Below, in pieces: positions 53,443 through 64,000 of a stretch of DNA of 64,000 nucleotides; within the stretch, counting starts at the first letter, position 1; each line of letters begins with the position of its first letter. The stretch is taken from contig JBGPUU010000001.1 of the NCBI GenBank assembly GCA_041491305.1, positions 15,500-79,499 on the forward strand, given 5' to 3'. The notes beneath the pieces are model-generated. The model ran no database searches. It was not told where the DNA came from and worked only from the letters and a program-made list of their open reading frames with translations. This stretch comes from Candidatus Methanoperedens sp. GTDB lineage: Archaea; Halobacteriota; Methanosarcinia; Methanosarcinales; Methanoperedenaceae. Made by a program: the position numbers and the translations under genes.

Positions 53443-54234
53443 CTATGGCAGGTATCTTTTCTTTTCAGGATTGCTGACCGAATGATTAAAAGGTTGCGGG
53501 GGAAGAATGGTAATATTTACAGTGGTATCCGTATGGCATCCTTCGCATGTCCAGTATCCTCTTGAAATGAATCTGCTTGAACCGTTTGCATTGCCCGGTG
53601 TTCGTCCGAATGGCTGGCTAATTCCATAGCTTGAGGACTGGTTGCTGGCCTGTAGATAAAATGGCTGGTGTGCGTTTGACTGGCTTAAATTATATCCTGC
53701 TGCCGTAATGTTGGGGAAACTCCCGAGAATCTGCGGGCTGTTATCGGAATAAATCCTGTTTCCGTGGCACCTGTCGTCATCGCATGTTATGACTGTTATT
53801 CCCGTATGCGTGGTTGCGTTGAAGAGAGTGGCGTTATGGCAAAGCATGCAGATCTCGGCACTATCTATTTGTCCGTTCCTGTTCGCATCAAGGCTGACGT
53901 TTACCAATATATTCAGGTTGCTTGAGTTCTGCCACTTTCGTTCAGAGATGTTCCAGTTCCATACAATATTATTATAATCAGTTATGGAATTTCCATTGTA
54001 ACTTATCCCGCCAATGGAAAGATATGAGGTGTAATTAGCATTTCCAGCCGCAGCTTTATGTTTTTCATAAACATATCCGCTATGCTCAACCTCAGATAAT
54101 ACATCGGTATGGCATTTCTCGCATGAAACACTGCTGTAAAAGGTGTGCTGCCCTGCAAGAAGAGAAACCGTATTGGGCATCACGTATAAACCCAATATCA
54201 TCAAAGCAAAATATAATATGATTTTCCTGTTCAT
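53443..54234 (-). CDS. Tetraheme c-type cytochrome, candidate extracellular filament subunit
   Basis: Signal/TM then SLLAGQHTFY; CEKCH, CMLCH, CDDDRCH (CX4CH), CEGCH. Confidence 0.8.
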   Translation of the reverse strand: MNRKIILYFALMILGLYVMPNTVSLLAGQHTFYSSVSCEKCHTDVLSEVEHSGYVYEKHKAAAGNANYTSYLSIGGISYNGNSITDYNNIVWNWNISERKWQNSSNLNILVNVSLDANRNGQIDSAEICMLCHNATLFNATTHTGITVITCDDDRCHGNRIYSDNSPQILGSFPNITAAGYNLSQSNAHQPFYLQASNQSSSYGISQPFGRTPGNANGSSRFISRGYWTCEGCHTDTTVNITILPPQPFNHSVSNPEKKRYLP

Positions 54235-54238
54235 CTTA

Positions 54239-54676
54239 TCACCCCGAACTGTTTGCAAAGAATTGTTTTGCATGCCTGTACAGGGTCGCAGTATCGCCGG
54301 TTATGTAATGGGCCGACTGGTTCAACCCGCTGACGTTATTGCCGCCGTCATTGTGAATAGTGATATTTCCTGCATCATCATAATTTGAATGGCAGTTGGT
54401 GCAGTAGATATTCTTTGTAAGGTTATGCGCTGCATTGATATTGTAAATTTCAGTACTGTTAGGATTATAGCCATGGCATATACATCCCGCATTGGCGTGG
54501 GCGCTCACGCTCACGATTGATACCTTTGTAGGATGGCATTTTATGCAGAAATCTGTTGCTGTTGTTGTGTTTTTATAGACCGTATGGCTTCCTGAGAATA
54601 TCGCGTATGTTGTAAACATGGAGGCGGCTAACAGTACCCCGAAAATCGCAAACAGTAACAATATTTTCTTATCCAT
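54239..54676 (-). CDS. Small multiheme c-type cytochrome (2 CXXCH + 1 CXCH)
   Basis: Signal/TM then AIFSGSHTVY; CIKCH, CICH, CTNCH. Confidence 0.8.
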   Translation of the reverse strand: MDKKILLLFAIFGVLLAASMFTTYAIFSGSHTVYKNTTTATDFCIKCHPTKVSIVSVSAHANAGCICHGYNPNSTEIYNINAAHNLTKNIYCTNCHSNYDDAGNITIHNDGGNNVSGLNQSAHYITGDTATLYRHAKQFFANSSG

Positions 54677-54683
54677 ATTTACC

Positions 54684-57600
54684 TCATGAATATACCTTGT
54701 CCGGATATGTATGACAGTAATTACAATCTATGGTCTTATTGTAACCATAAGTGGCAATTGCGTTATTATAATATGACGAATCATGGCAGACGGTGCAGTC
54801 AGTGATATTTACAACATTTATTCCATTGTAATTATATGTGCTCGGACTGCTTGTTATGTTATGCCTGTCTGTCTCATTCTTTGGATCACTCTGGTAGGCA
54901 TGGCAGTCCTCGCATGCTTTTCTTGCGCCAATGTTATTATGTCCTTTCGTGTGGCAGTCCTGGCATGCCAATGAACCGTGCGGGCTCCCACTGAACATGG
55001 TCTGGTTCACGAATTTGTCCGGAGAACCTACCCCATTCATGTATTCATAGCTGAAATGGCAGCTTGTGCATAACCCTGTGTTTACATTATGAACAAATTC
55101 TTTTATAGTGCCGTCAGACAGGGATTTACCATGGCAGCCCTTGCACGTGGTATCGTTATAATCAGGTGTCAGGGAATGGTTATAATAGCCGCTCAAATTG
55201 TAAGGTGAATAGATTGAGGAGTTCGTAATCTCAGGAGGGACTGAAAGATTGACGCCGGTAAAGGCCTGAGTCATGTTTATGTAGATCATTCCGCTGTTTG
55301 AATAACCCTGATAGTGACATCCTGCACACCAGTTGCCGTTACCGGAAATCTGGGAATCCATAATGTTACTTCCGCTCCAGTTGGAGGGTCTTCCAAGGCC
55401 TGTTGCATTATGTTTTGAGTCGCCGTGGCAATAATCGCACATACTCTCCTGGCTTGTATTAGTCCAATACCCCTGCTGCGTGCCGTTCCAGAAAGAACTA
55501 TTCAGCGAGCTATTGCCATGCTGGACTGTAGAGACTTTTGGAGGCGTTTTTGACAGCTTTGAATCCAATGTATTTTGCTGGTGGCAATCGGTGCAATTTA
55601 CAGCGCTCTGGTTCCCGGTATCATATGTGCCATCAGGCTTGAGATATGTCATCGGATGGATATTTTTCTTATCCGGACCTGTATGGCATTCCGTGCAATT
55701 GACCGAATTGTTGTGCATTTCTTTATATGTTGTCACCGCTCCGGTATAATTTATGGTGCCATTTGATACATTCAGTCCATGGCAGGCCAGGCAATATGAA
55801 CTGTTTATATTGTTGATTTCAGGTTTAATTAATTGAGCGCCGTGCAGTGATGAATTTGTACTATTGTGACATTCGTTTACACTGCATGACGGGTTTGAGG
55901 AATTGTATCTCAGGCTGTGATTGGAAATGCTACTATTGGCAACGTCCTGGAATACGCTGCTGAATTCACCTGTTGCATTTCTGTGGCAGTATATACAATA
56001 ATCATAACTTCCCGCGGTGATTCCAAAGTTTGACCTGTTAGTGCCGTAATGGTAGAAGCTCGTGTTTCCTCCGCTAACACCAACCCCGTCGCTTGCGAAT
56101 GAGCCATAATCCGTATCATTATTGGGAGTTATCATTCCGGAAACATTTTCATGGCATCCCAGGCAGGAGGCAAGGTCGCTCGTCCGGTTATCCAGAGCAC
56201 TGATATTTGTGCCGTTCCTGTAATGGTTGGATATAATCGTTGCATTGTATGCTCCTGCATTGCTTCCATTTGCTAAGTGGCAGTCCGGGCAGGTATAGGG
56301 TGTATCTCTCTTATCCGGATGTGTGTTGTTAGCTACTGCGTAGCCGCTTGAGTTATGGCATGCCCAGCAGCTTGCGTTTATACCGTAGCCTGAAGCGTTA
56401 TTGCTGTTCAAGTTTGCATGCACGGATATGCTGAAATTCGAGCCGTCTATGTAATTCAGGCCAGTGAAGTTCTGGGGATTGGACTTGTTATGGCAGTCAA
56501 GGCATCCGGGACCGCCGCCGAGCACTACTTCGTTTGAATGGAAATCAACCGGTATGCTCTGGTTTCTGGTATGACAGGCATAGCATGAATCGCTGCTTAT
56601 TGTAAATCTATTCCCGAACATGTTGCTGGCGTTTACCTGCAAAGCATTGCCCCATCCATTTCTTATTGTTTCAACACTCTGGTTGTGGCAGAACAGGCAG
56701 TTCGTGGTAGTGGGCATGCGGTCTATGGGAACTGTCCAGTGAGGTGGATCGTACTTGCCACCTGGTCCATCCGGGTAGTTATACTGTGCATAGTAACCAC
56801 CGAAATTAGATTTGTTGAAATAAGGGGCTGCGTGACAGGTTCCTTCCCCGGTGACTGCATTGTAACTATAGCAAGTTGTGGGATATGTATCAGTGCCGCC
56901 CTGTGAGGGTACGCTTACGTTTGTGCCCGTTATGCTGGAATAATTCGTGTGGGAATAAACATAAGGCAGCGTATTGTTGATGTCGCTTCTCAGGGAATAG
57001 AAAGCTGTCCTGTTCGGTCCTGTGAATATGGAGCTTACGTTTATGTGACAGTTTTCGCAAAGTTTAACACTCTGGAGGTTAGCTGTGATCAAGCTGGGAT
57101 TTCCAGTGCCGTGGCAGGCATAGCAGTCTGACCCGTCCAGGGTGGCTGAATTATTTTCCCAGTCAAATCCTCCGCTTGTCTCCCAGCCGCCGTGTATTAT
57201 CCAGGGAAGCCGCAAGGGTTGGGAGTGTAAGGTTGTTGCATTGGTACCGTTGTGGCAGTTGCCACAGGACTGGGTTTTTGCAGGATGTCTTGTGATAATG
57301 GCGTACCATTCCGTTGCATTTACCTGGGATTTGTGACACAGCGAGCAGTCGATGCTGTTTTTGATAAGGCTTGTATTGGTGGAGTAGTGGGATATATTGG
57401 AATAGATGGCATCTATATTGTCGCCACCATTTATATAAAAACCACTTGTATTAAAACCACCCATGCTTTTTATGTGGCAGGCGGCGCAATCTACCGAAGA
57501 GTTCCAGAAATCCGAGGTTATCTTGTAGATATCCGTGGTATAGTTCGCCGGGATATGATTGTATATTTTCTTTTCAGTCAGGTCATTAATCCTGCCAGCA

Positions 57601-59129
57601 TTGGTGTATGTGAGGTTTACAGTCGCGTTATGGCATGCAACGCAGCCGGTAACTATTATTGTGGTGTTAAACTCTGTGCCGTTGGTATGGCAAGCCCAGC
57701 AGGCTTTGTCCACTAAATCCGAAAGCTCGGTCGTATTGGTTGCATTCCGGTTTAGATATTTATGGGTTGAATTCGAGGACGAATTCATTGATGAAACATC
57801 CACTTTAGCTATCGAATTTGTAGTATTTGATACGCCATGGCAATTAACACAGTCAGAAATACTCCCGCCCGGATGCGATATTACAAGCGATTCCTGCCCT
57901 GATATAGCAAAAGGGGACAGCGAACCGGTGCCGGCGCTTAACGTGCTGTTTGTAATGTCCCGGATAGTTTCAAGCTGCTCCCATTGTGTAACATTCCAGT
58001 GATATATAAAAAGTGTCCTTTCATCTATATTGTTAAGTTCGGCTTTGTTGTAGTGTATTGTTATTTCAGCAGATGAAAAAGATATATTCTCCGCGCTTAT
58101 CTCCACATATTTTACAACCCTTCCCGGAACCGGAACAGACACAGGGTTTCTTTTCCCGAAATCATCGAGAATGACTTTTCCTTTCCCGTGAACTGAAGCA
58201 TTTTCCAGTTTCAGGGCGGCATTTTTTGTGGGGATTGCATCAATTTTAAAGATTTTTGGATTATCCGGTGCTGCACTGGCTACTGGTATAAAAAAATCAA
58301 GGATTGAATAAAAAAATACTGCAGGCCCGGTGATAATCGGGAAAGCCACTCCGATTAGCCCGGAACTGTTTACCTTACGATAAGATTTGACAAGCGAATT
58401 ATTTTCAAATATCTCGACTGTTGAATTGACAAGAGAACCTGATGTATCTATGACATTGATATCCCACTCCGGGGAAGGTGCCACAATCGCAAAGACTGAC
58501 AAGGAATTCACTGTTGTACTAATGACATTATTTGCTACATCGATTTTTGTCGGCAGTTCGTTCCAAACCTGCCCGGCATTATCGTAACTGTAAATAGTAA
58601 GATTATTCACATCCAACCCTTTGACTTCCGTATCAGTGAATTTTATTGATATATCAACGTTAGAAAAAGAAACGCCGCCGGAATTGACTTCTACATACTT
58701 TACCGGCGTGCCGGGCGCTGATACATTTACGCTCCCGGGCTGGTTAATGCCGTAATTTTCCAGCACCACCCTTCCTTTTGGTGATTCCCCTGAAATCCGA
58801 AGATTGATTGATAATCCCTTGTTGGCAAAATCATCATAACTGATTACAGCGCCAGGAATTCCGTGCCAGCTTATAAGATTGACATTCGGTCTTGGCGGTC
58901 CGCTTGATACCCCTTCCCCGCTTAACGATATTGCACCGGTTAACGGATTTCCTGCGGCATCTGTGAATGTTATCTCGCCGCTTGTTTTTAGCGCTTCGGT
59001 CCGGGTTGGTATTGGAGGGAAATACAATAAAGCCGCAGCTATACCTGATAAAACTACAAACACAAGTATTATGAGCCTGGTTTTAGAGAGCCCTGCTCTA
59101 TCCCGTAAAATATCCATTTTTTTGACCAT
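54684..59129 (-). CDS. Large multiheme cytochrome c (26 CXXCH + CX11CH + CX4CH) with two N-terminal PGF-pre-PGF-like domains
   Basis: Motifs counted by hand; N-terminal TM segment; duplicated VKYVE...W..L.T......SLS.FAI domains. Confidence 0.9.
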   Translation of the reverse strand: MVKKMDILRDRAGLSKTRLIILVFVVLSGIAAALLYFPPIPTRTEALKTSGEITFTDAAGNPLTGAISLSGEGVSSGPPRPNVNLISWHGIPGAVISYDDFANKGLSINLRISGESPKGRVVLENYGINQPGSVNVSAPGTPVKYVEVNSGGVSFSNVDISIKFTDTEVKGLDVNNLTIYSYDNAGQVWNELPTKIDVANNVISTTVNSLSVFAIVAPSPEWDINVIDTSGSLVNSTVEIFENNSLVKSYRKVNSSGLIGVAFPIITGPAVFFYSILDFFIPVASAAPDNPKIFKIDAIPTKNAALKLENASVHGKGKVILDDFGKRNPVSVPVPGRVVKYVEISAENISFSSAEITIHYNKAELNNIDERTLFIYHWNVTQWEQLETIRDITNSTLSAGTGSLSPFAISGQESLVISHPGGSISDCVNCHGVSNTTNSIAKVDVSSMNSSSNSTHKYLNRNATNTTELSDLVDKACWACHTNGTEFNTTIIVTGCVACHNATVNLTYTNAGRINDLTEKKIYNHIPANYTTDIYKITSDFWNSSVDCAACHIKSMGGFNTSGFYINGGDNIDAIYSNISHYSTNTSLIKNSIDCSLCHKSQVNATEWYAIITRHPAKTQSCGNCHNGTNATTLHSQPLRLPWIIHGGWETSGGFDWENNSATLDGSDCYACHGTGNPSLITANLQSVKLCENCHINVSSIFTGPNRTAFYSLRSDINNTLPYVYSHTNYSSITGTNVSVPSQGGTDTYPTTCYSYNAVTGEGTCHAAPYFNKSNFGGYYAQYNYPDGPGGKYDPPHWTVPIDRMPTTTNCLFCHNQSVETIRNGWGNALQVNASNMFGNRFTISSDSCYACHTRNQSIPVDFHSNEVVLGGGPGCLDCHNKSNPQNFTGLNYIDGSNFSISVHANLNSNNASGYGINASCWACHNSSGYAVANNTHPDKRDTPYTCPDCHLANGSNAGAYNATIISNHYRNGTNISALDNRTSDLASCLGCHENVSGMITPNNDTDYGSFASDGVGVSGGNTSFYHYGTNRSNFGITAGSYDYCIYCHRNATGEFSSVFQDVANSSISNHSLRYNSSNPSCSVNECHNSTNSSLHGAQLIKPEINNINSSYCLACHGLNVSNGTINYTGAVTTYKEMHNNSVNCTECHTGPDKKNIHPMTYLKPDGTYDTGNQSAVNCTDCHQQNTLDSKLSKTPPKVSTVQHGNSSLNSSFWNGTQQGYWTNTSQESMCDYCHGDSKHNATGLGRPSNWSGSNIMDSQISGNGNWCAGCHYQGYSNSGMIYINMTQAFTGVNLSVPPEITNSSIYSPYNLSGYYNHSLTPDYNDTTCKGCHGKSLSDGTIKEFVHNVNTGLCTSCHFSYEYMNGVGSPDKFVNQTMFSGSPHGSLACQDCHTKGHNNIGARKACEDCHAYQSDPKNETDRHNITSSPSTYNYNGINVVNITDCTVCHDSSYYNNAIATYGYNKTIDCNYCHTYPDKVYS

Positions 59130-59289
59130 GGGGTTTCTACATTGTTTTCATTCCAATCCTGTTTTCCTATCACCTTAATTGTTATTTATGTGCGTCCAAA
59201 ATAAATAGGTTTACATGATTTTAATTAATTACATGAACATTTATTATCAATCCGGAACCCGGCTTTTGGGAATGTTTTGAATGGCATTA

Positions 59290-60126
59290 TCACGATGTTA
59301 AATAATCCGTATGACGTCCGCTGTATACATACCCGACACCGAATGCGGAAAATGCAAGTACGAAGATGCTGAAAATAATCAGCCATGCAATCCTTTTTCC
59401 GGTCCATCCCGCGTTCATCCGCAGGTGCAGGCAAATCCCGTATGTGAACCATGAAATTAAAGACCATGTCTCGATGGGGTCCCAGCCCCAGTACCTGCCC
59501 CATGTCTGGTTTGCCCAAATTGCTCCTGCCGCTATCATTATAGTAAGGGCGAAAAATCCCATCGCCACGAAATGATACATAAGATCGTCCATTGTTCTTA
59601 ATCCGGGAAGCCTTTCGTAAAATGAATCCTGGATTCCGGTATTTAACTGCTTCTCTTTCAATATATAAAGAGCAGCAGTGGCTGCCGCAACCATTACCGA
59701 CCCGAAGCCAAGGCTTGCAAAACCTACATGGGCTATCAGCCAGTAACTCTGGAGAGAAGCCGGTATCATCTGGATATCCCTTGAATAAGTCGAACCTATA
59801 GCCATCAGCAAAAAGGATGCAGGCAGCACTATAAATCCTGCAATCTTAATCTTTTCATATTTTTGCTGCGAAAATAAGAATATAACTACTGAAAACCATG
59901 CATATTTTGATAAAACCTCGTACATACTGATGTAGGGACCGTGCCCGGTTTCTATCCACCGAAGGGCTATGGAAACACTGTGGAACAACAAGCCGGCAAA
60001 CGCGGTACTGACTGCAAGATTTATTCTTTCTTCTTTCTTGAAAACAAGGCAGTACAGGTATATAGCCGAACTGAGCGCATAAAGCACTGCAGCGGCCACG
60101 TAGATAATCCATTCAGTCTGTGCCAT
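59290..60126 (-). CDS. ccsA: Cytochrome c synthase CcsA/ResC (System II)
   Basis: WWD domain GAIWANQTWGRYWGWDPIETWSLISW; conserved His (HVGFA, SGRH). Confidence 0.92.
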   Translation of the reverse strand: MAQTEWIIYVAAAVLYALSSAIYLYCLVFKKEERINLAVSTAFAGLLFHSVSIALRWIETGHGPYISMYEVLSKYAWFSVVIFLFSQQKYEKIKIAGFIVLPASFLLMAIGSTYSRDIQMIPASLQSYWLIAHVGFASLGFGSVMVAAATAALYILKEKQLNTGIQDSFYERLPGLRTMDDLMYHFVAMGFFALTIMIAAGAIWANQTWGRYWGWDPIETWSLISWFTYGICLHLRMNAGWTGKRIAWLIIFSIFVLAFSAFGVGYVYSGRHTDYLTS

Positions 60127-61525
60127 GTAACCTCTTCATTTTATCGACAATACCTGAATATTCTTCTTCATATAAAGACCTGAACTTATCAGCCCGCCCC
60201 CCGATATAAATCTCCATTGCATCGGAATCACTGACAACCTCAACCCATATCCTCTTAGGGATTATAAAGAAAGATAACATGAGGCTGAATATCATAAATC
60301 CGACTCCCGCATACACAAGAAGCGTCCCGTCATCCTTCACCACGTAGAAATTACTCCAGTATTTTATATCATAAAATCCCAGGGTTCTGTCATAGCCAAG
60401 GTAATTATCGTGTATTTTTATTGTATCATTCAGCCTGAGCGTACCATCGTATATCTGCTTTCCCCCGTCAAATATCCTCAAAAACATGATTGGTGTTTTT
60501 TCGGCTTCGGATTCCATTAGTTGTCCTGTTAAAGGCGCAGTCATGTATACCATCAATCCCCCTTCAAGACCCGTATTCCCCATTTGGAAAGATGAGACAT
60601 ACCTCCCGCTGTTATCGAGGTCTTGTGCGGTTATATACGAGCCGGAATATACCGTCCCGTCCGGATTCTTCAACAACAGCAGCGGCGCAAGACCATAGAC
60701 ATTCCCAAGAAACGTGTATCCATTATAAGTCATCATGTGATTTGAAAATACAATATCAGTTTTCATCTTCTGGCCATTCTCTATTATAGAAAGCTCGCCT
60801 GCTGCTCCGCGAGGCGTATTTGTTTCATCCTTGTAATCAGGGAAGAATTTCAGAAGTGAAATACCGAATCCCTGGTGGTTTTCGTTAAAAAAATGACCCT
60901 CGTTGATAAACATATAGTTCGCGTGCTCTTCTTCCAGGGTCTGCCCTTCTATTAATCGCATATCCCCTTCCATCCTGCCCAAACTTCCGTAAACCACAGC
61001 TATTATGATGAAAAGTATGCTGATGTGAAACAGCGATGTGCCCAGTATCCCGAACCTGTTTTTTTCCGCAAGAATGCAATTCCCCTGCTGCCGTACCTTA
61101 TACCCTGCTGACTTAAGTAAAGAACCCGTTTCAGAAATAACACTATTGCTATCTTTTTTTGTTTTAATTACCGAGCTGTTCTCAAGTCCTGTAATGTATG
61201 CCTTTTTCTGGAATTGCTGGGCGTTGAGCCTTCGAAAAGCGCTTTTCAGCATCGTTCTTGTGCAGAAAAGAGTATTAACGACAAGGAGCGCCACTATGCT
61301 TAAAAATATAACTGATGAATAAAGATGGGTAAAACCGATTTTCTCAAAGGTTTCAGCCTGCCCCGGATTCGTAGATTTCCATTTATCATATACGTCAGGT
61401 TTGAGCTGCGATTGCTGGGGTACATAGGTCCCGATTATCGAAAATACGATAATGAGAGTAATAAGAACTATCGCAAGTTTTCTGGAGCTAAAAAAAGTAG
61501 CGATTTTCCCGGTACTAAAATCCAT
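60113..61525 (-). CDS. resB: Cytochrome c biogenesis protein ResB/CcsB (System II)
   Basis: SSRKLA...SIIGTYVPQ, NTLFCT, FHISIL, large extracytoplasmic domain, DDGTLLVYAG...KRIWV; overlaps ccsA. Confidence 0.88.
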   Translation of the reverse strand: MDFSTGKIATFFSSRKLAIVLITLIIVFSIIGTYVPQQSQLKPDVYDKWKSTNPGQAETFEKIGFTHLYSSVIFLSIVALLVVNTLFCTRTMLKSAFRRLNAQQFQKKAYITGLENSSVIKTKKDSNSVISETGSLLKSAGYKVRQQGNCILAEKNRFGILGTSLFHISILFIIIAVVYGSLGRMEGDMRLIEGQTLEEEHANYMFINEGHFFNENHQGFGISLLKFFPDYKDETNTPRGAAGELSIIENGQKMKTDIVFSNHMMTYNGYTFLGNVYGLAPLLLLKNPDGTVYSGSYITAQDLDNSGRYVSSFQMGNTGLEGGLMVYMTAPLTGQLMESEAEKTPIMFLRIFDGGKQIYDGTLRLNDTIKIHDNYLGYDRTLGFYDIKYWSNFYVVKDDGTLLVYAGVGFMIFSLMLSFFIIPKRIWVEVVSDSDAMEIYIGGRADKFRSLYEEEYSGIVDKMKRLHGTD

Positions 61526-61609
61526 TATTTTATCTTTCCTGACTTATCTTACTATACCCTTGATAAGTAGATATAAATAACTTTGCAGACGATGTAAACG
61601 TAAACTAAA

Positions 61610-62077
61610 ATGACGCCTCTAAATAAAATAATCGTCCTGATTGCCGTGGGTTCAGTTCTCGTTTTATCGGCAGCCTGGTGGGATTCACAATCAGGAAACA
61701 ATTCGGCTTTTATCAAACTTGGCGGTGTTTCATTTCATACATCAATAGAACCTGGAATCACAGAGGCAAAGAACTCAAGCAAACCTGTTTTCCTGTATTT
61801 CAGGTCGGAAACGTGTTACTGGTGCATAAGATTTGAAAATGAAGCTTTATCTGATAAAAGGGTCATCGATAAACTCAATAATAATTTTGTTCTTATTTCG
61901 ATTGATACATTCAAACAAAAAAATGTTTCCCTGAATCTCAATGTACGAACCACCCCGTATATGATTTTCTTTACAAAAGACGGCGAAGAGATATCAAGAA
62001 TCCCGGGTTACCTGCAAACTGATGATTTCCTTGTACAATTAAATTCCGTATCGGACAAACTCAACCGGAGCTCTTAG
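61610..62077 (+). CDS. Membrane-anchored thioredoxin family protein
   Basis: N-terminal TM; TCYWC, RTTPY cis-Pro loop, RIPGY. Confidence 0.85.
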   Translation: MTPLNKIIVLIAVGSVLVLSAAWWDSQSGNNSAFIKLGGVSFHTSIEPGITEAKNSSKPVFLYFRSETCYWCIRFENEALSDKRVIDKLNNNFVLISIDTFKQKNVSLNLNVRTTPYMIFFTKDGEEISRIPGYLQTDDFLVQLNSVSDKLNRSS

Positions 62078-63521
62078 TTGCGGTTATATATTTTTCAATA
62101 AACTTCCGAACCTCAGGAGGCATCTCGCCTTTCATCTGGTTTGAGAGGTAAGAATCGTTGATGAGCAGCCGCGTGACCTCTATCATGTAGTTTTTCTTGA
62201 ATTCACTCATCTCCTCAATTTTTTCAAGCTTTCCCATGTAAAAATCCCGGAATCCCTTTAAAAGATGAATATTTAGTTCCTCCCGCGTCATGTTAATGGG
62301 CTTGACTATCGGTTCGATAAGATTGTATTTTGAATAATCAAATTCCTCTATGAATGGTGCAAGTTCAGGATAAATATCAGAATAAGGCCATGGGGCAATT
62401 GCAAGGAAAAACGCAAGGTCAGGATTATAGTACTGCGCCAGTTTTCGTGCCGTCTCTATGGATCCGGGCGTTTCTTCAGGCATCCCGAGGACAAAGGACG
62501 TTTCCGAAATAATCCCGGTATTGTTTATCAATTCAATCGCTTCCCTTGACTGCTCTACCCTGATATTTTTCTGATAGCGGTCAAGCGTATCCTGGCTTGC
62601 GGATTCTGCTCCCACGTAAATATGCAGGATTCCCGCTTTTTTGTATTTATCAATTATATCCTTATCACGCAGGATGTCGTCCACCCTTGTTTCCATCAAT
62701 ATTTCAAGGTCAAGTTCTTTCGCGATAAGAAGATCAAGGATTTTTTCCCACCGTTTGCGGTCATACGTCGGTGTTTCATCGGCTATCATGGCAACATCCA
62801 CGCCGTAATTGCTGTTTAAGAATTCAAGCTCGGATACGAAGTTTTCAGGGCTTCTCCCTCTCCATTTCTCCCTCCAGAAAAGACGCTGCGAACAGAATGT
62901 GCATTTCTGGGTACAGCCCCTTGAAGAACTTACGACTGCAAGTGTGGAATTTTTCTTTGTCTTGAATGTATAATCCTTCCACTCTATAAGGTTCCATGCC
63001 GCAGGCATTACGTCCAGATTTGATACGAGCGGCCGTTCTTTCGTGCAGATGGTTTTCCCATCCCGCACATAAGCAATTCCCGCGACATCCGGGCTTAATC
63101 CTTCGAAAACCTGGCTGAGAAGTTCTGATGTGGTGATTTCACCTTCGCCGCGTATTATATAATCTACAACGCTGCTCTCTTTTTGCAGGATTTCCTTCCA
63201 GCAGAACGTGGGATGTATGCCTCCAAGGAGCGTAATTATTTCCGGGTTAACCTCTTTAGCAATTCTTAGAACCGAAATAGCATCGTAAAGGCTTGATGTA
63301 TATGCCGCTGTGCCCACTACATCCGGATTGGTTTCTTTTATGCGCCTTTTGATGTCGTCAAAAGTATGATATTTTGACATCGCATCGTATATGCTGACCT
63401 CATACCCGGCTTTTTGCAGGCTTCCGGCAACGTACACCATGCCAAGAGGCATCCATGTGCCTGCGGATTCGAGTACGCCGCAGTGGTATGGCGGTGTTAT
63501 TAACAGGACTTTATTGGACAT
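62061..63521 (-). CDS. Cobalamin-binding (class B) radical SAM enzyme
   Basis: PLGMVYVAG, PDVVGTAAYT, GGIHPT, GEGE, SSRGCTQKCTFC, GAES; ATG 63521. Confidence 0.9.
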   Translation of the reverse strand: MSNKVLLITPPYHCGVLESAGTWMPLGMVYVAGSLQKAGYEVSIYDAMSKYHTFDDIKRRIKETNPDVVGTAAYTSSLYDAISVLRIAKEVNPEIITLLGGIHPTFCWKEILQKESSVVDYIIRGEGEITTSELLSQVFEGLSPDVAGIAYVRDGKTICTKERPLVSNLDVMPAAWNLIEWKDYTFKTKKNSTLAVVSSSRGCTQKCTFCSQRLFWREKWRGRSPENFVSELEFLNSNYGVDVAMIADETPTYDRKRWEKILDLLIAKELDLEILMETRVDDILRDKDIIDKYKKAGILHIYVGAESASQDTLDRYQKNIRVEQSREAIELINNTGIISETSFVLGMPEETPGSIETARKLAQYYNPDLAFFLAIAPWPYSDIYPELAPFIEEFDYSKYNLIEPIVKPINMTREELNIHLLKGFRDFYMGKLEKIEEMSEFKKNYMIEVTRLLINDSYLSNQMKGEMPPEVRKFIEKYITATKSSG

Positions 63522-63549
63522 TTCGTTTCTTTGAATACCGCTATGATAA

Positions 63550-64000
63550 TTATTTTTTGTGTTTCTTCCAGAACCATAGCGCAACTATTGCTATTACTAA
63601 CGAAAATGCAGCTATGTAGGTTAAATATGTTTTTGTTACGGTTTTAACAATCTCTTTCCCATGGAAACTTTTTAATTCTCCTTCGACATGGCATCCCAGG
63701 CAATCCTTATTGCCAACATTACTATGCTGCGAATCCGAAGGCAGGGCTCCGGGATTGCCCCATGCTTTTCTAATATTTTCATTTTCCTGGATATGGCAGA
63801 AAATGCAATTTTTTGATTCAGGCATGAAATCGACAGGAGAATTCCAGTGGTAAGGGTCACCCCTGTTAAATATTGTGCCTGTATAATTTGTATTGAATGA
63901 AAAATAACCGCCTGCTTTTTCTTTATTCCCGAACGTCACTCCATGGCATGAACCCTGGCCGGTTGCTGCATCAAATCCGAAGCAGGAAGACCTTGTATTT
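63550..64000 (-). CDS. C-terminal part of a membrane-anchored multiheme cytochrome (5' end outside window)
   Basis: Frame open from the window end: CFGFDAATGQGSCH (CX11CH), CIFCH, CLGCH, C-terminal TM + WKKHKK. Confidence 0.85.
   Translation of the reverse strand, partial: NTRSSCFGFDAATGQGSCHGVTFGNKEKAGGYFSFNTNYTGTIFNRGDPYHWNSPVDFMPESKNCIFCHIQENENIRKAWGNPGALPSDSQHSNVGNKDCLGCHVEGELKSFHGKEIVKTVTKTYLTYIAAFSLVIAIVALWFWKKHKK

What the first reader, a model, noticed from the sequence alone, without database searches (positions are those of the whole stretch)
56640..64000. Conserved CX11CH heme-like module shared by two cytochromes (plus CX4CH and CXCH variants)
Seen: the large MHC has CYSYNAVTGEGTCH...GGYY...DPPHW...P...NCLFCH.Q..E.IR..WGN, and the terminal MHC has CFGFDAATGQGSCH...GGYF...DPYHW...P...NCIFCH.Q..E.IR..WGN. 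Both Cys and the 11-residue spacing are conserved while the loop diverges. CX4CH occurs twice (CDDDRCH, CSVNECH) and CXCH once. Established: extended motifs such as CX15CH in MccA bind heme and need a dedicated synthase. Inference: an unrecognised extended heme-binding module that CXXCH scans miss, possibly a catalytic or special-potential site.
Basis: partly seen in the sequence, partly recalled or inferred. Interest (0 to 1): 0.7.

Follow-up and report, generated by a model that had tools for sequence, protein, structure and literature searches.

The report
Stretched CX11CH heme site in archaeal cytochromes
Two surface cytochromes of the methane-oxidising archaeon Candidatus Methanoperedens share a conserved three-heme building block whose first heme site is very probably a stretched Cys-11 residues-Cys-His motif, so ordinary CXXCH counts miss one heme per copy; it is a new example of a known kind of site, not a new mechanism.

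Summary
The 1481-aa cytochrome (54684-59129, minus strand) carries CYSYNAVTGEGTCH. The cytochrome cut by the window end carries CFGFDAATGQGSCH. The two ~120-aa modules align at 35% identity (E 2e-24).

An all-against-all search found 57 cluster representatives, and 54 of the extended motifs they carry are CX11CH. In 49 aligned modules (~35% identity) both Cys, the His and one loop Gly are invariant. Rare variants have 7 to 10 loop residues.

Heme binding is supported only indirectly:
- Every Cys in these proteins sits in a CXnCH motif.
- The site fills a 120-residue gap in the heme spacing.
- The module is homologous to a canonical three-heme unit in the same proteins, with its CH aligned on a canonical CH.
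- Histidine budgets fit one extra heme.

A disulfide-stapled hairpin is not excluded, and no solved structure covers the module.

The adjacent rSAM-Trx-ResB-CcsA (System II) cassette is enriched with the module but is neither specific nor indispensable for it. The module is confined to ANME-2 lineages in the genomes sampled. Precedents are OmcZ CX14CH and MccA CX15CH. I found no evidence of a catalytic role. The CX4CH and CXCH motifs are also confirmed and conserved.

The parts
54684..59129 (-). Large multiheme cytochrome, 1481 aa. It has an N-terminal membrane or signal segment, PGF-pre-PGF domains, then 28 CXnCH motifs (26 CXXCH, CX11CH, CX4CH). It carries 83 N-x-S/T sequons.
   Evidence: Pfam Cytochrome_C7 scores 107.5 bits and MtrC/MtrF II-IV 87.7 bits. 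TIGR04213 scores 37.8 bits against a cut-off of 28. Composition shuffles give 30.6 +/- 4.7 sequons against the 83 observed.
56832..56873 (-). CX11CH motif CYSYNAVTGEGTCH (residues 753-766), the proposed stretched heme c attachment site.
   Evidence: C, G, C and H are invariant in 49 aligned modules.
56529..56891 (-). Tri-heme module of the large MHC (residues 747-867). It comprises CX11CH, GGYY, DPPHW, CLFCH (811), CYACH (849) and the invariant F-H.
   Evidence: AlphaFold2 of this module with 49 sequences gives pLDDT 84.4 and pTM 0.75, with a beta-hairpin between the two Cys.
56949..56993 (-). Conserved upstream element LRSDINNTLPYVYSH (residues 713-727). The His is kept in at least 85% of modules and is a candidate distal heme ligand.
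57219..57524 (-). Canonical tri-heme unit of the same protein (residues 536-637: CAACH, SHY, CSLCH, RHPAK, CGNCH, LH). It is a paralogue of the CX11CH module.
   Evidence: hhalign of A1 against A3 gives probability 93.1% and E 3.2e-7. In extended and global alignments, C19-H20 of the module falls on C16-H17 of CAACH. The same register appears in hmmsearch and BLASTP.
55866..55886 (-). CX4CH motif CSVNECH (residues 1082-1088).
   Evidence: In the two internal repeats of homologue P0006 the homologous site reads CTNSTCH in one and CSQCH in the other.
63550..63999 (-). C-terminal 149 aa of a propeller-Ig-heptaheme fusion protein (1007-codon frame), cut by the window and contig end. It holds CX11CH, two CXXCH and a C-terminal transmembrane helix (63568-63627).
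   Evidence: The ortholog in genome G228 is an intact 1007-codon frame in the same gene order.
63943..63984 (-). CX11CH motif CFGFDAATGQGSCH of the terminal cytochrome.
59290..60126 (-). CcsA/ResC-type System II cytochrome c synthase subunit with the WWD motif WGRYWGWDPIETWSLISW.
   Evidence: PF01578 scores 135.6 bits. TIGR03144 scores 193.6 bits against a cut-off of 187.6. The motif was found.
60113..61525 (-). ResB/CcsB-type System II subunit, 470 aa.
   Evidence: PF05140 scores 187 bits over profile positions 2-485. It is the only ResB in the genome.
61610..62077 (+). Membrane-anchored thioredoxin-like protein with a CYWC active site (ResA/CcsX-like).
   Evidence: Pfam Thioredoxin_2 scores 53.7 bits. 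The CxxC motif was found.
62061..63584 (-). B12-binding radical SAM enzyme, BchE-like, cytoplasmic. It is the best-conserved gene of the cassette.
   Evidence: Pfam B12-binding and Radical_SAM domains. TIGR02026 BchE scores 400.8 bits, below its cut-off of 481. It is 71% identical to the ANME-2 copy, against 39% for ResB.
54239..54676 (-). 145-aa membrane-anchored cytochrome with 2 CXXCH and the contracted CXCH motif (CICH, 54473-54484).
   Evidence: AGC[ILSAV]CHGY is present in 120 of 120 listed homologues.
53443..54273 (-). 276-aa cytochrome with 3 CXXCH and the CX4CH motif CDDDRCH (53764-53784).

Best explanation
CX11CH is the first heme c attachment site of a conserved tri-heme module of about 150 residues. 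The module reads P-x-V-Y-x-H, then C-[FY]-x-[FYW]-[ND]-x-x-T-G-E-G-[TS]-C-H, then G-G-Y-F, P-Y-(H/M/x), [LM]-P-[DN]-[TS]-x-x-CXXCH, W-G, CXXCH and F-H. It occurs in multiheme cytochromes of ANME-2 lineages (Methanoperedens and ANME-2 cluster archaea).

The proposed mechanism is inferred, not shown. The two Cys form the thioether bonds to the heme vinyls and the following His is the proximal iron ligand. The 11 intervening residues form a conserved beta-hairpin in the place of the usual two residues.

On this reading the large cytochrome carries 28 hemes, not 26, and the terminal cytochrome domain carries 7, not 6. The site is an ordinary link in the electron-transfer chain, because it closes what would otherwise be a 120-residue hole in the heme spacing.

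Heme is attached by the cell's own maturation machinery. The genome has System I (CcmF- and CcmC-like genes) plus one System II set. The System II set (rSAM-Trx-ResB-CcsA) lies between the two cytochrome genes. It is a plausible maturase for the neighbouring giant cytochromes in general, not a lyase dedicated to CX11CH.
For: Shown here:
1. The motif is conserved. 54 of the extended motifs in the 57 representatives are CX11CH. C7, G17, C19 and H20 are invariant in 49 modules at about 35% identity.
2. Loop-length variants of 7, 8, 9 and 10 residues all keep both Cys and the His.
3. No Cys is spare. All 56 Cys of the large MHC and all Cys of the fusion protein sit in CXnCH motifs.
4. Spacing fits a heme here. 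Gaps between successive motifs are 17-62 residues. Without residue 753 the largest gap would be 120.
5. The module is homologous to a canonical tri-heme unit of the same proteins (hhalign probability 93%, E 3e-7). In extended and global alignments the CH of CX11CH falls on the CH of CAACH. The ligand distances match: 31 against 29 residues, and 14 against 14.
6. The histidine budget fits an extra heme. In 22 small Methanoperedens cytochromes without extended motifs, total His minus twice the motif count has median 0. For CX11CH heptahemes it is 1-2 if the site binds heme and 3-4 if it does not. Across 80 proteins the medians are 1 and 3.
7. In the P0036/97/98 clade two variable His positions are both replaced by Met, as expected of axial ligands. 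That gives five distal candidates for five sites.
8. AlphaFold2 of the module gives pLDDT 84 with a hairpin between the Cys.

From the literature: extended motifs do bind heme. OmcZ CX14CH forms a solvent-exposed loop in the cryo-EM structure (PMC11208441, PMC13748539). MccA CX15CH is a further case (PMC6976685, PMC11492766).
Against: - There is no direct evidence of heme at this site.
- No solved structure covers the CX11CH half of the module. The PDB profile search gave only generic CXXCH hits and Foldseek gave none.
- The hhalign score rests on the two canonical hemes. The register over the first site has low per-column confidence.
- In the minimal 4+1 family only 8 His columns are conserved at 80% or more. 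That equals exactly 2 x 4 canonical hemes, which also fits a non-heme hairpin whose His ligates a neighbouring heme.
- The histidine-budget samples are phylogenetically related and few.
Confidence: 0.72

Rival explanations
1. The two Cys form a disulfide that staples a conserved beta-hairpin. No heme is attached there. The following His serves as the distal ligand of a neighbouring canonical heme. The module would then hold two hemes.
For: - A C-x11-C hairpin with a conserved T-G-E-G turn is a plausible disulfide-stapled hairpin.
- In the minimal 4+1 proteins the conserved His columns number 8, exactly enough for four bis-His hemes if H20 is a distal ligand.
- These are extracytoplasmic proteins, and a thiol-disulfide oxidoreductase gene lies nearby.
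Against: - No other Cys in these proteins lies outside a heme motif.
- The Cys-His dyad is invariant.
- The site sits where a heme is needed to keep motif spacing at 62 residues or less.
- It aligns with a canonical CXXCH in the paralogous unit.
- The His surplus would be 3-4, against a median of 0 in control cytochromes.
- H-to-M switches at two further positions give more ligand candidates than four hemes need.
- In the AlphaFold2 secondary-structure string the bridge residues 10 and 17 imply that C7 and C19 are not directly opposite each other. This point is weak.
Confidence: 0.15
2. CX11CH binds heme, but only through a dedicated lyase, namely the ResB-CcsA pair encoded between the two cytochrome genes. 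This would parallel CcsA1 for the CX15CH of MccA in Wolinella.
For: - The cassette rSAM-Trx-ResB-CcsA lies between the two CX11CH genes here. The same holds in 8 other loci, including an ANME-2 cluster genome of another family.
- In 401 genomes of the phylum, full-length ResB and the full module occur in the same 4 genomes.
- In 251 genomes of the order, 17 of 22 module-bearing genomes have this ResB, against 12 of 229 without the module.
- The genome also has System I, so System II is an extra.
- Native CX14CH OmcZ could not be expressed in Shewanella, while the loop-deleted form could (bioRxiv 10.64898/2026.07.18.739370).
Against: - There is a double dissociation. 12 genomes, 8 of them at least 90% complete, carry the cassette but no full module when all candidates are scored. 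There the cassette flanks giant cytochromes with only canonical or short-variant motifs.
- 5 genomes carry the module without any ResB hit. Three of them are at least 95% complete, though one of these three (G493) is known only from a 1-kb contig.
- In G499 the heptaheme gene, the rSAM gene and a giant CX11CH cytochrome are adjacent with Trx-ResB-CcsA absent from between them.
- The co-occurrence is confounded by shared ancestry, since only two lineages are involved.
Confidence: 0.25
3. The CX11CH heme is a catalytic or special-potential centre (open or unusual distal coordination), not a wire heme.
For: - One ligand-candidate position of the module (position 51) is variable: His in 16 of 49, Met in 7 of 49 and other residues in 26 of 49. 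In about half the family some heme may therefore lack a protein distal ligand there.
- The loop carries a frequently conserved Glu.
- The OmcZ CX14CH loop affects reduction of soluble acceptors (PMC11208441).
Against: - Both window copies have His at position 51 (DPPHW, DPYHW).
- It is unknown which heme that position serves.
- The module occurs inside long heme chains and in small anchored cytochromes, with no partner typical of an enzyme.
- There is no similarity to MccA, NrfA or HAO active sites.
Confidence: 0.08

Closest known systems
OmcZ of Geobacter sulfurreducens: heme bound by CX14CH (PDB 7LQ5; described in PMC11208441, PMC13748539 and bioRxiv 10.64898/2026.07.18.739370)
   Same: It is an extracellular electron-transfer multiheme cytochrome in which one heme of the chain is bound by a motif with a long insertion between the two Cys. 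The extra residues form a loop. Replacing the loop with XX gives a canonical site.
   Different: There is no detectable homology. 7lq5 appears only at E 0.8 and on another part of the profile. The loop has 11 residues, is conserved and is predicted to be a hairpin. The hosts are archaeal. The Methanoperedens OmcZ2 nanowire itself has only canonical motifs (PMC13748539).
MccA/SirA octaheme sulfite reductase: CX15CH or CX17CH heme 8, with the dedicated lyase CcsA1 in Wolinella (PMC6976685, PMC11492766, PMC9250108)
   Same: It has an extended CXnCH motif that binds heme. A System II synthase gene lies next to the cytochrome gene. CX11CH is listed among the motifs of this literature.
   Different: No sequence relation to MccA was found. 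There is no copper-site context and no enzyme partner. The neighbouring System II cassette is not specific to the motif.
Large ANME multiheme cytochromes (Chadwick et al. 2022, PMC9012536)
   Same: The organism group and protein class are the same. [quoted passage not shown]
   Different: In the text I searched, that paper does not define this CX11CH module, its consensus or its distribution, and does not mention ResB or CcsA. The cytochrome here has PGF-pre-PGF domains. No S-layer domain came up in the Pfam or NCBIfam scans.
CX3CH and CX4CH motifs of cytochrome c3-type proteins, and the contracted one-residue motif of an anammox tetraheme cytochrome (Ferousi et al. 2019, cited in PMC11492766 as CXCK)
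   Same: They explain the CX4CH (CSVNECH, CDDDRCH) and CXCH (CICH) motifs of the window as known kinds of variant heme sites.
   Different: The CXCH site here belongs to a large archaeal family of 145-aa proteins (120 of 120 conserved). I could not read the Ferousi paper, so whether its motif ends in H or K rests on the citing paper.

Membership tests
c-type heme attachment site (CXnCH) | Two Cys followed directly by the proximal His, conserved among homologues | tested here: met
   C7, C19 and H20 are invariant in 49 modules. 54 of the extended motifs in the 57 representatives are CX11CH.
c-type heme attachment site (CXnCH) | The protein is exported to the side of the membrane where heme is attached | tested here: met
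   An N-terminal hydrophobic segment is present in the large MHC. The terminal MHC has a C-terminal transmembrane helix and sits in a fusion with a signal-like N-terminus. Sequons number 83 against 31 expected. This is read from the sequence; no predictor was run.
c-type heme attachment site (CXnCH) | Cytochrome c maturation machinery in the genome | tested here: met
   Four PF01578 genes are present, three of which (765, 232 and 318 codons) are read as CcmF-, CcmC- and CcmF-like by size alone, and the window's CcsA, plus one ResB.
c-type heme attachment site (CXnCH) | Covalent heme on both Cys | not testable with these tools
   This needs mass spectrometry or a structure.
MccA-type CX15CH/CX17CH site | Homology to MccA/SirA octaheme sulfite reductase | tested here: not met
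   No MccA chain appears among the PDB hits of the protein or of the module profile at E up to 10.
MccA-type CX15CH/CX17CH site | Dependence on a dedicated, co-encoded System II lyase | tested here: inconclusive
   The site is co-encoded with the cassette here and in 8 other loci. However, 12 genomes have the cassette without the module and 5 have the module without ResB.
OmcZ family | Sequence or fold similarity to OmcZ (PDB 7LQ5) | tested here: not met
   7lq5_A scores E 0.8 on profile positions 91-116 only. Foldseek found no match.
System II cytochrome c synthase (CcsBA/ResBC) | CcsA subunit above the curated cut-off, with a WWD motif | tested here: met
   TIGR03144 scores 193.6 against a cut-off of 187.6. 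The motif is WGRYWGWDPIETWSLISW.
System II cytochrome c synthase (CcsBA/ResBC) | Full-length ResB/CcsB subunit adjacent to CcsA | tested here: met
   PF05140 scores 187 bits over profile positions 2-485 of 486. The ResB and CcsA genes overlap by 14 bases.
MtrC/MtrF domain II/IV (PF22113) | Score above the Pfam gathering threshold over the module | tested here: inconclusive
   The whole large MHC scores 87.7 bits (cut-off 30), but the best stretch is residues 474-632, not the module. The terminal fragment scores 19.9 bits and matches only the last two hemes.
BchE (anaerobic Mg-protoporphyrin IX monomethyl ester cyclase) | Score above the equivalog cut-off | tested here: not met
   TIGR02026 scores 400.8 bits against a cut-off of 481.35. 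The enzyme is BchE-like, not BchE.

The most novel reading that the evidence does not exclude
The conserved rSAM-Trx-ResB-CcsA cassette would be an archaeal System II specialised for giant surface cytochromes. Its BchE-like, B12-dependent radical SAM enzyme, a relative of an enzyme that acts on a porphyrin, would modify the heme (or the apoprotein) delivered by CcsBA. Some sites of these cytochromes, such as CX11CH, would then carry a chemically modified heme c or need a special attachment route.
Probability: 0.12. Interest if true: 0.8.

Novelty: new member of a known kind. Interest (0 to 1): 0.45.

Why it matters
Heme counts for ANME cytochromes are routinely made with CXXCH, or CX2-4CH, patterns (for example PMC13748539, PMC12180501). 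Such counts miss one heme per copy of this module, at a position that would otherwise look like a break in the wire. This matters for models of extracellular electron transfer during anaerobic methane oxidation.

The module also gives a compact test object for asking how archaea mature non-canonical heme sites: heptaheme and pentaheme proteins of 280-310 aa. The flanking System II cassette, with its BchE-like radical SAM enzyme, is a candidate for the still-unknown route by which 30- to 100-heme proteins are loaded. A 2015 survey found no System II in Archaea (PMC4429474).

Tried and rejected
- AlphaFold2 of a whole 308-aa heptaheme homologue with 36 sequences gave pLDDT 51 and was unusable.
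- The good module model could not be measured, because coordinates are not exposed to the Python box.
- Foldseek against the PDB gave no match.
- phmmer of the protein against PDB sequences gave nothing. The module profile gave only generic CXXCH hits.
I used the genome search instead.
- No RNA sequencing run holds the stretch, so expression is untested.
- The Ferousi et al. paper on the contracted motif is not held.
- I considered and rejected the idea that the cassette is an exclusive CX11CH lyase.
- I considered that C57 carries a second paralogous copy. I rejected this in favour of an overlapping contig end from a strain variant, given the end-to-end overlap of 934 bp.
- The conserved-column His count in the 4+1 family at first seemed to favour the disulfide rival. 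The H-to-M switches and the semi-conserved His columns removed most of that advantage.
Full report
**What is there**

The region holds, all on the minus strand unless noted:
- two small cytochromes: 53443-54273, with 3 CXXCH plus CDDDRCH; and 54239-54676, with 2 CXXCH plus CICH;
- a 1481-aa multiheme cytochrome (54684-59129);
- CcsA (59290-60126);
- ResB (60113-61525);
- a thioredoxin-like protein on the plus strand (61610-62077);
- a B12-binding radical SAM enzyme (62061-63584);
- the C-terminal 149 aa of another cytochrome (63550-63999), which runs off the window.

Names attached to close homologues place the window in Candidatus Methanoperedens.

The large cytochrome has 26 CXXCH, one CX11CH (CYSYNAVTGEGTCH, residues 753-766) and one CX4CH (CSVNECH). 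All 56 of its Cys are in such motifs. The terminal cytochrome has CFGFDAATGQGSCH followed by two CXXCH.

The two modules align over 120 residues at 35% identity, E 2e-24. C-x11-CH is rare in non-cytochrome frames of this genome: 12 in 1.14 million residues.

**The terminal protein**

The window ends 206 bases before the end of contig C1. Contig C57 overlaps the end of C1 over about 934 bp at about 95% identity, end to end. C57 carries the full gene as a 1007-codon frame. The protein has a signal-like N-terminus, an FG-GAP-like repeat region, three Ig-like repeats, then a heptaheme domain (6 CXXCH plus CX11CH) and a C-terminal transmembrane helix.

Genome G228, of the same genus, has the same gene order with an intact 1007-codon frame. 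In other Methanoperedens genomes the heptaheme part is a stand-alone protein of 302-327 aa at the same place next to the radical SAM gene.

**How conserved the motif is**

A search of 1.84 billion cluster representatives with the 141-aa module gave 57 hits. Among the extended motifs they carry, 54 are CX11CH. Variants with 10 (two cases), 8 and 7 loop residues also occur, and all keep both Cys and the His. A 9-residue variant turned up in another genome.

In an alignment of 49 modules (mean identity to the window copy about 35%) the invariant columns are C7, G17, C19, H20, P60, both later CXXCH motifs and H118.

It reads C-[FY]-x-[FYW]-[ND]-x-x-T-G-E-G-[TS]-C-H, with 76-100% conservation at five loop positions (+3, +4, +7, +8 and +10) and 82% F/Y at +1. 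An upstream P-x-V-Y-x-H element also belongs to the module, with its His kept in at least 85% of cases.

**Distribution**

Named members come from Methanoperedens, 'ANME-2 cluster archaeon', Methanosarcinaceae or Methanosarcinales MAGs, and one Hydrothermarchaeales MAG. One 'Dehalococcoidia' MAG is probably a binning error.

Among 401 genomes sampled across the phylum, the full module is found only in two Methanoperedens genomes and two genomes of one other genus of the order. A contig of that genus matches an 'ANME-2 cluster archaeon' record in length and encoded cytochrome. In a 251-genome sample of the order, 22 genomes have it.

**Does it bind heme?**

Nothing here shows it directly. The indirect case is as follows.

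1. The C...CH signature is invariant over deep divergence and over changes in loop length.
2. There are no Cys outside CXnCH motifs in these proteins.
3. Spacing fits. Successive motifs in the large cytochrome are 17-62 residues apart. Removing residue 753 would open a 120-residue gap.
4. There is homology to a canonical unit. The tri-heme unit just upstream in the same proteins (CAACH...SHY...CSLCH...RHPAK...CGNCH...FH) matches the module by profile-profile comparison (probability 93%, E 3e-7).
   - When the alignment is extended or made global, the CH of CX11CH falls on the CH of CAACH, and the canonical first Cys falls inside T-G-E-G.
   - hmmsearch and BLASTP give the same register.
   - The distances from the proximal His to the next landmarks agree: 31 against 29 residues, and 14 against 14.
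   - The register over the first site has low column confidence, so this is support, not proof.
5. The histidine budget fits.
   - In 22 small Methanoperedens cytochromes without extended motifs, total His minus twice the number of motifs has median 0, and is exactly 0 in 10 of 22. His is used almost only as a heme ligand there.
   - CX11CH heptahemes give 1-2 if the site counts as a heme and 3-4 if it does not.
   - Over 80 proteins the medians are 1 and 3.
6. In one clade of 4+1 proteins, two variable His positions are both Met (MLEH to LMQM, and DPYHW to DPYMW). This is the behaviour of axial ligands, and it gives five distal candidates for five sites.
7. AlphaFold2 of the module with the 49-sequence alignment is confident (pLDDT 84.4, pTM 0.75). 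It places a beta-hairpin between the two Cys.

Precedents exist. OmcZ of Geobacter binds one heme through CX14CH, whose extra residues form a solvent-exposed loop (PMC11208441, PMC13748539). MccA binds one heme through CX15CH (PMC6976685). I put heme binding at about 0.72.

**The main rival**

The main rival is a disulfide-stapled hairpin whose His ligates a neighbouring heme. It is favoured by one observation. In the minimal 4+1 family only eight His columns are conserved at 80% or more, which is exactly enough for four bis-His hemes.

The semi-conserved His and Met columns, the spacing, the full Cys accounting and the budget comparison all weigh against it. It stands at about 0.15.

No solved structure helps. 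PDB sequence and profile searches gave only generic CXXCH matches, and Foldseek gave none. I could not read the model's coordinates.

**Is there a dedicated synthase?**

The genes between the two cytochromes are a complete System II set:
- CcsA scores above the TIGR03144 cut-off and has a WWD motif.
- ResB is full length.
- The thioredoxin-like protein is membrane-anchored with a CYWC site.
- A BchE-like B12 radical SAM enzyme accompanies them.

The genome also has System I genes, read by size as CcmF- and CcmC-like.

The cassette is conserved in 20 loci that I inspected, always beside giant cytochromes. This includes an ANME-2 cluster genome, where the order is giant CX11CH cytochrome, ResB, CcsA, rSAM.

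Co-occurrence with the module is strong in the crude counts:
- phylum sample: the same 4 of 401 genomes have both;
- order sample of 251: 17 genomes have both, 5 have the module only, 12 have ResB only, and 217 have neither.

The exceptions are real, however. The 12 ResB-only genomes have no full module even when every candidate is scored. There the cassette flanks cytochromes with canonical or short-variant motifs. Among the five module-only genomes, three are at least 95% complete, but one of those (G493) is known only from a 1-kb contig. In G499 the heptaheme gene, the rSAM gene and a giant CX11CH cytochrome are adjacent with Trx-ResB-CcsA missing from between them.

The cassette is therefore better read as maturation machinery for the neighbouring giant cytochromes than as a CX11CH-specific lyase. 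I give 0.25 to a strict requirement. MAG incompleteness and shared ancestry limit both directions of this argument.

**Catalytic or special site?**

One ligand-candidate position (51) is variable: His in 16 of 49, Met in 7 of 49 and other residues in 26 of 49. Some family members may therefore have a heme without a protein distal ligand there. Both window copies have His at that position, and it is unknown which heme the position serves. There is no similarity to known catalytic multiheme enzymes. I give this reading 0.08.

**The other motifs**

- CX4CH is a known variant. At the site homologous to CSVNECH, the two internal repeats of homologue P0006 read CTNSTCH and CSQCH. CX4CH and CXXCH therefore interchange at one position.
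- CXCH (CICH) lies in a 145-aa anchored protein. All 120 of its listed homologues keep AGC[ILSAV]CHGY.
- A contracted motif has been shown to bind heme in an anammox cytochrome. This rests on a citation in PMC11492766; I could not read the original.

**Literature and novelty**

CX11CH appears in the searched literature only in lists of rare motifs tied to MccA. Chadwick et al. [quoted passage not shown] The text I searched does not describe this module and does not mention ResB or CcsA. Kletzin et al. 2015 found no System II in Archaea. Gupta et al. 2022 do not mention it.

The CX11CH module is thus a new, family-specific member of the known class of extended CXnCH heme sites. The archaeal System II cassette with its radical SAM partner is the more unusual by-product of this work.

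Two earlier notes of this scan, on another genome, reached the same reading of the motif and of the propeller-heptaheme fusion. I treated them as leads and re-derived both points independently.

Noticed in passing
window 59290-63584: A complete System II cytochrome c maturation set lies in an archaeon that also has System I. It comprises CcsA, ResB, a CYWC thioredoxin-like protein and a BchE-like B12 radical SAM enzyme. It is conserved as a cassette in 20 inspected loci of Methanoperedens and ANME-2 genomes, always beside giant cytochromes. A 2015 survey reported no System II in Archaea (PMC4429474). The rSAM is the best-conserved gene of the cassette, at 71% identity between families against 39% for ResB.
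   Followed up: partly
window 63550-64000; G000:C57:13260-16280: The terminal cytochrome is the end of a 1007-codon fusion of an FG-GAP-like propeller, three Ig-like repeats and a heptaheme domain. Contigs C1 and C57 overlap end to end (about 934 bp at about 95% identity), which looks like a strain-variant assembly break. In other genomes the heptaheme part is a separate protein of 302-327 aa.
   Followed up: partly
window 54239-54676: This 145-aa anchored cytochrome belongs to a family of at least 246 clusters. In all 120 listed members the contracted motif AGC[ILSAV]CHGY is kept beside two CXXCH.
   Followed up: yes
window 54684-59129: The large cytochrome has 83 N-x-S/T sequons, against 30.6 +/- 4.7 in composition shuffles. 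This suggests very dense N-glycosylation of a surface protein.
   Followed up: partly
L054 (G499:C16:50001-70000): In this locus the heptaheme CX11CH gene, the rSAM gene and a giant CX11CH cytochrome are adjacent, with the Trx-ResB-CcsA genes absent from between them. It is a natural deletion variant of the cassette.
   Followed up: no
genomes of family f8 in the phylum sample: A shorter ResB-like protein (320-345 codons, matching profile positions 52-269 and 417-486) is present in 27 genomes of another family of the phylum. That family lacks the CX11CH module. It appears to be a second archaeal ResB type.
   Followed up: no
small cytochromes of G000 and related loci: In small Methanoperedens cytochromes the total number of His equals exactly twice the number of heme motifs in 10 of 22 proteins. 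The His count is therefore a usable check on heme-site predictions in this group.
   Followed up: partly
P0006: A 1156-aa homologue at 62% identity is labelled 'Dehalococcoidia bacterium' on a 3.5-kb contig. Given that every other named member is archaeal, this is probably a binning error.
   Followed up: no
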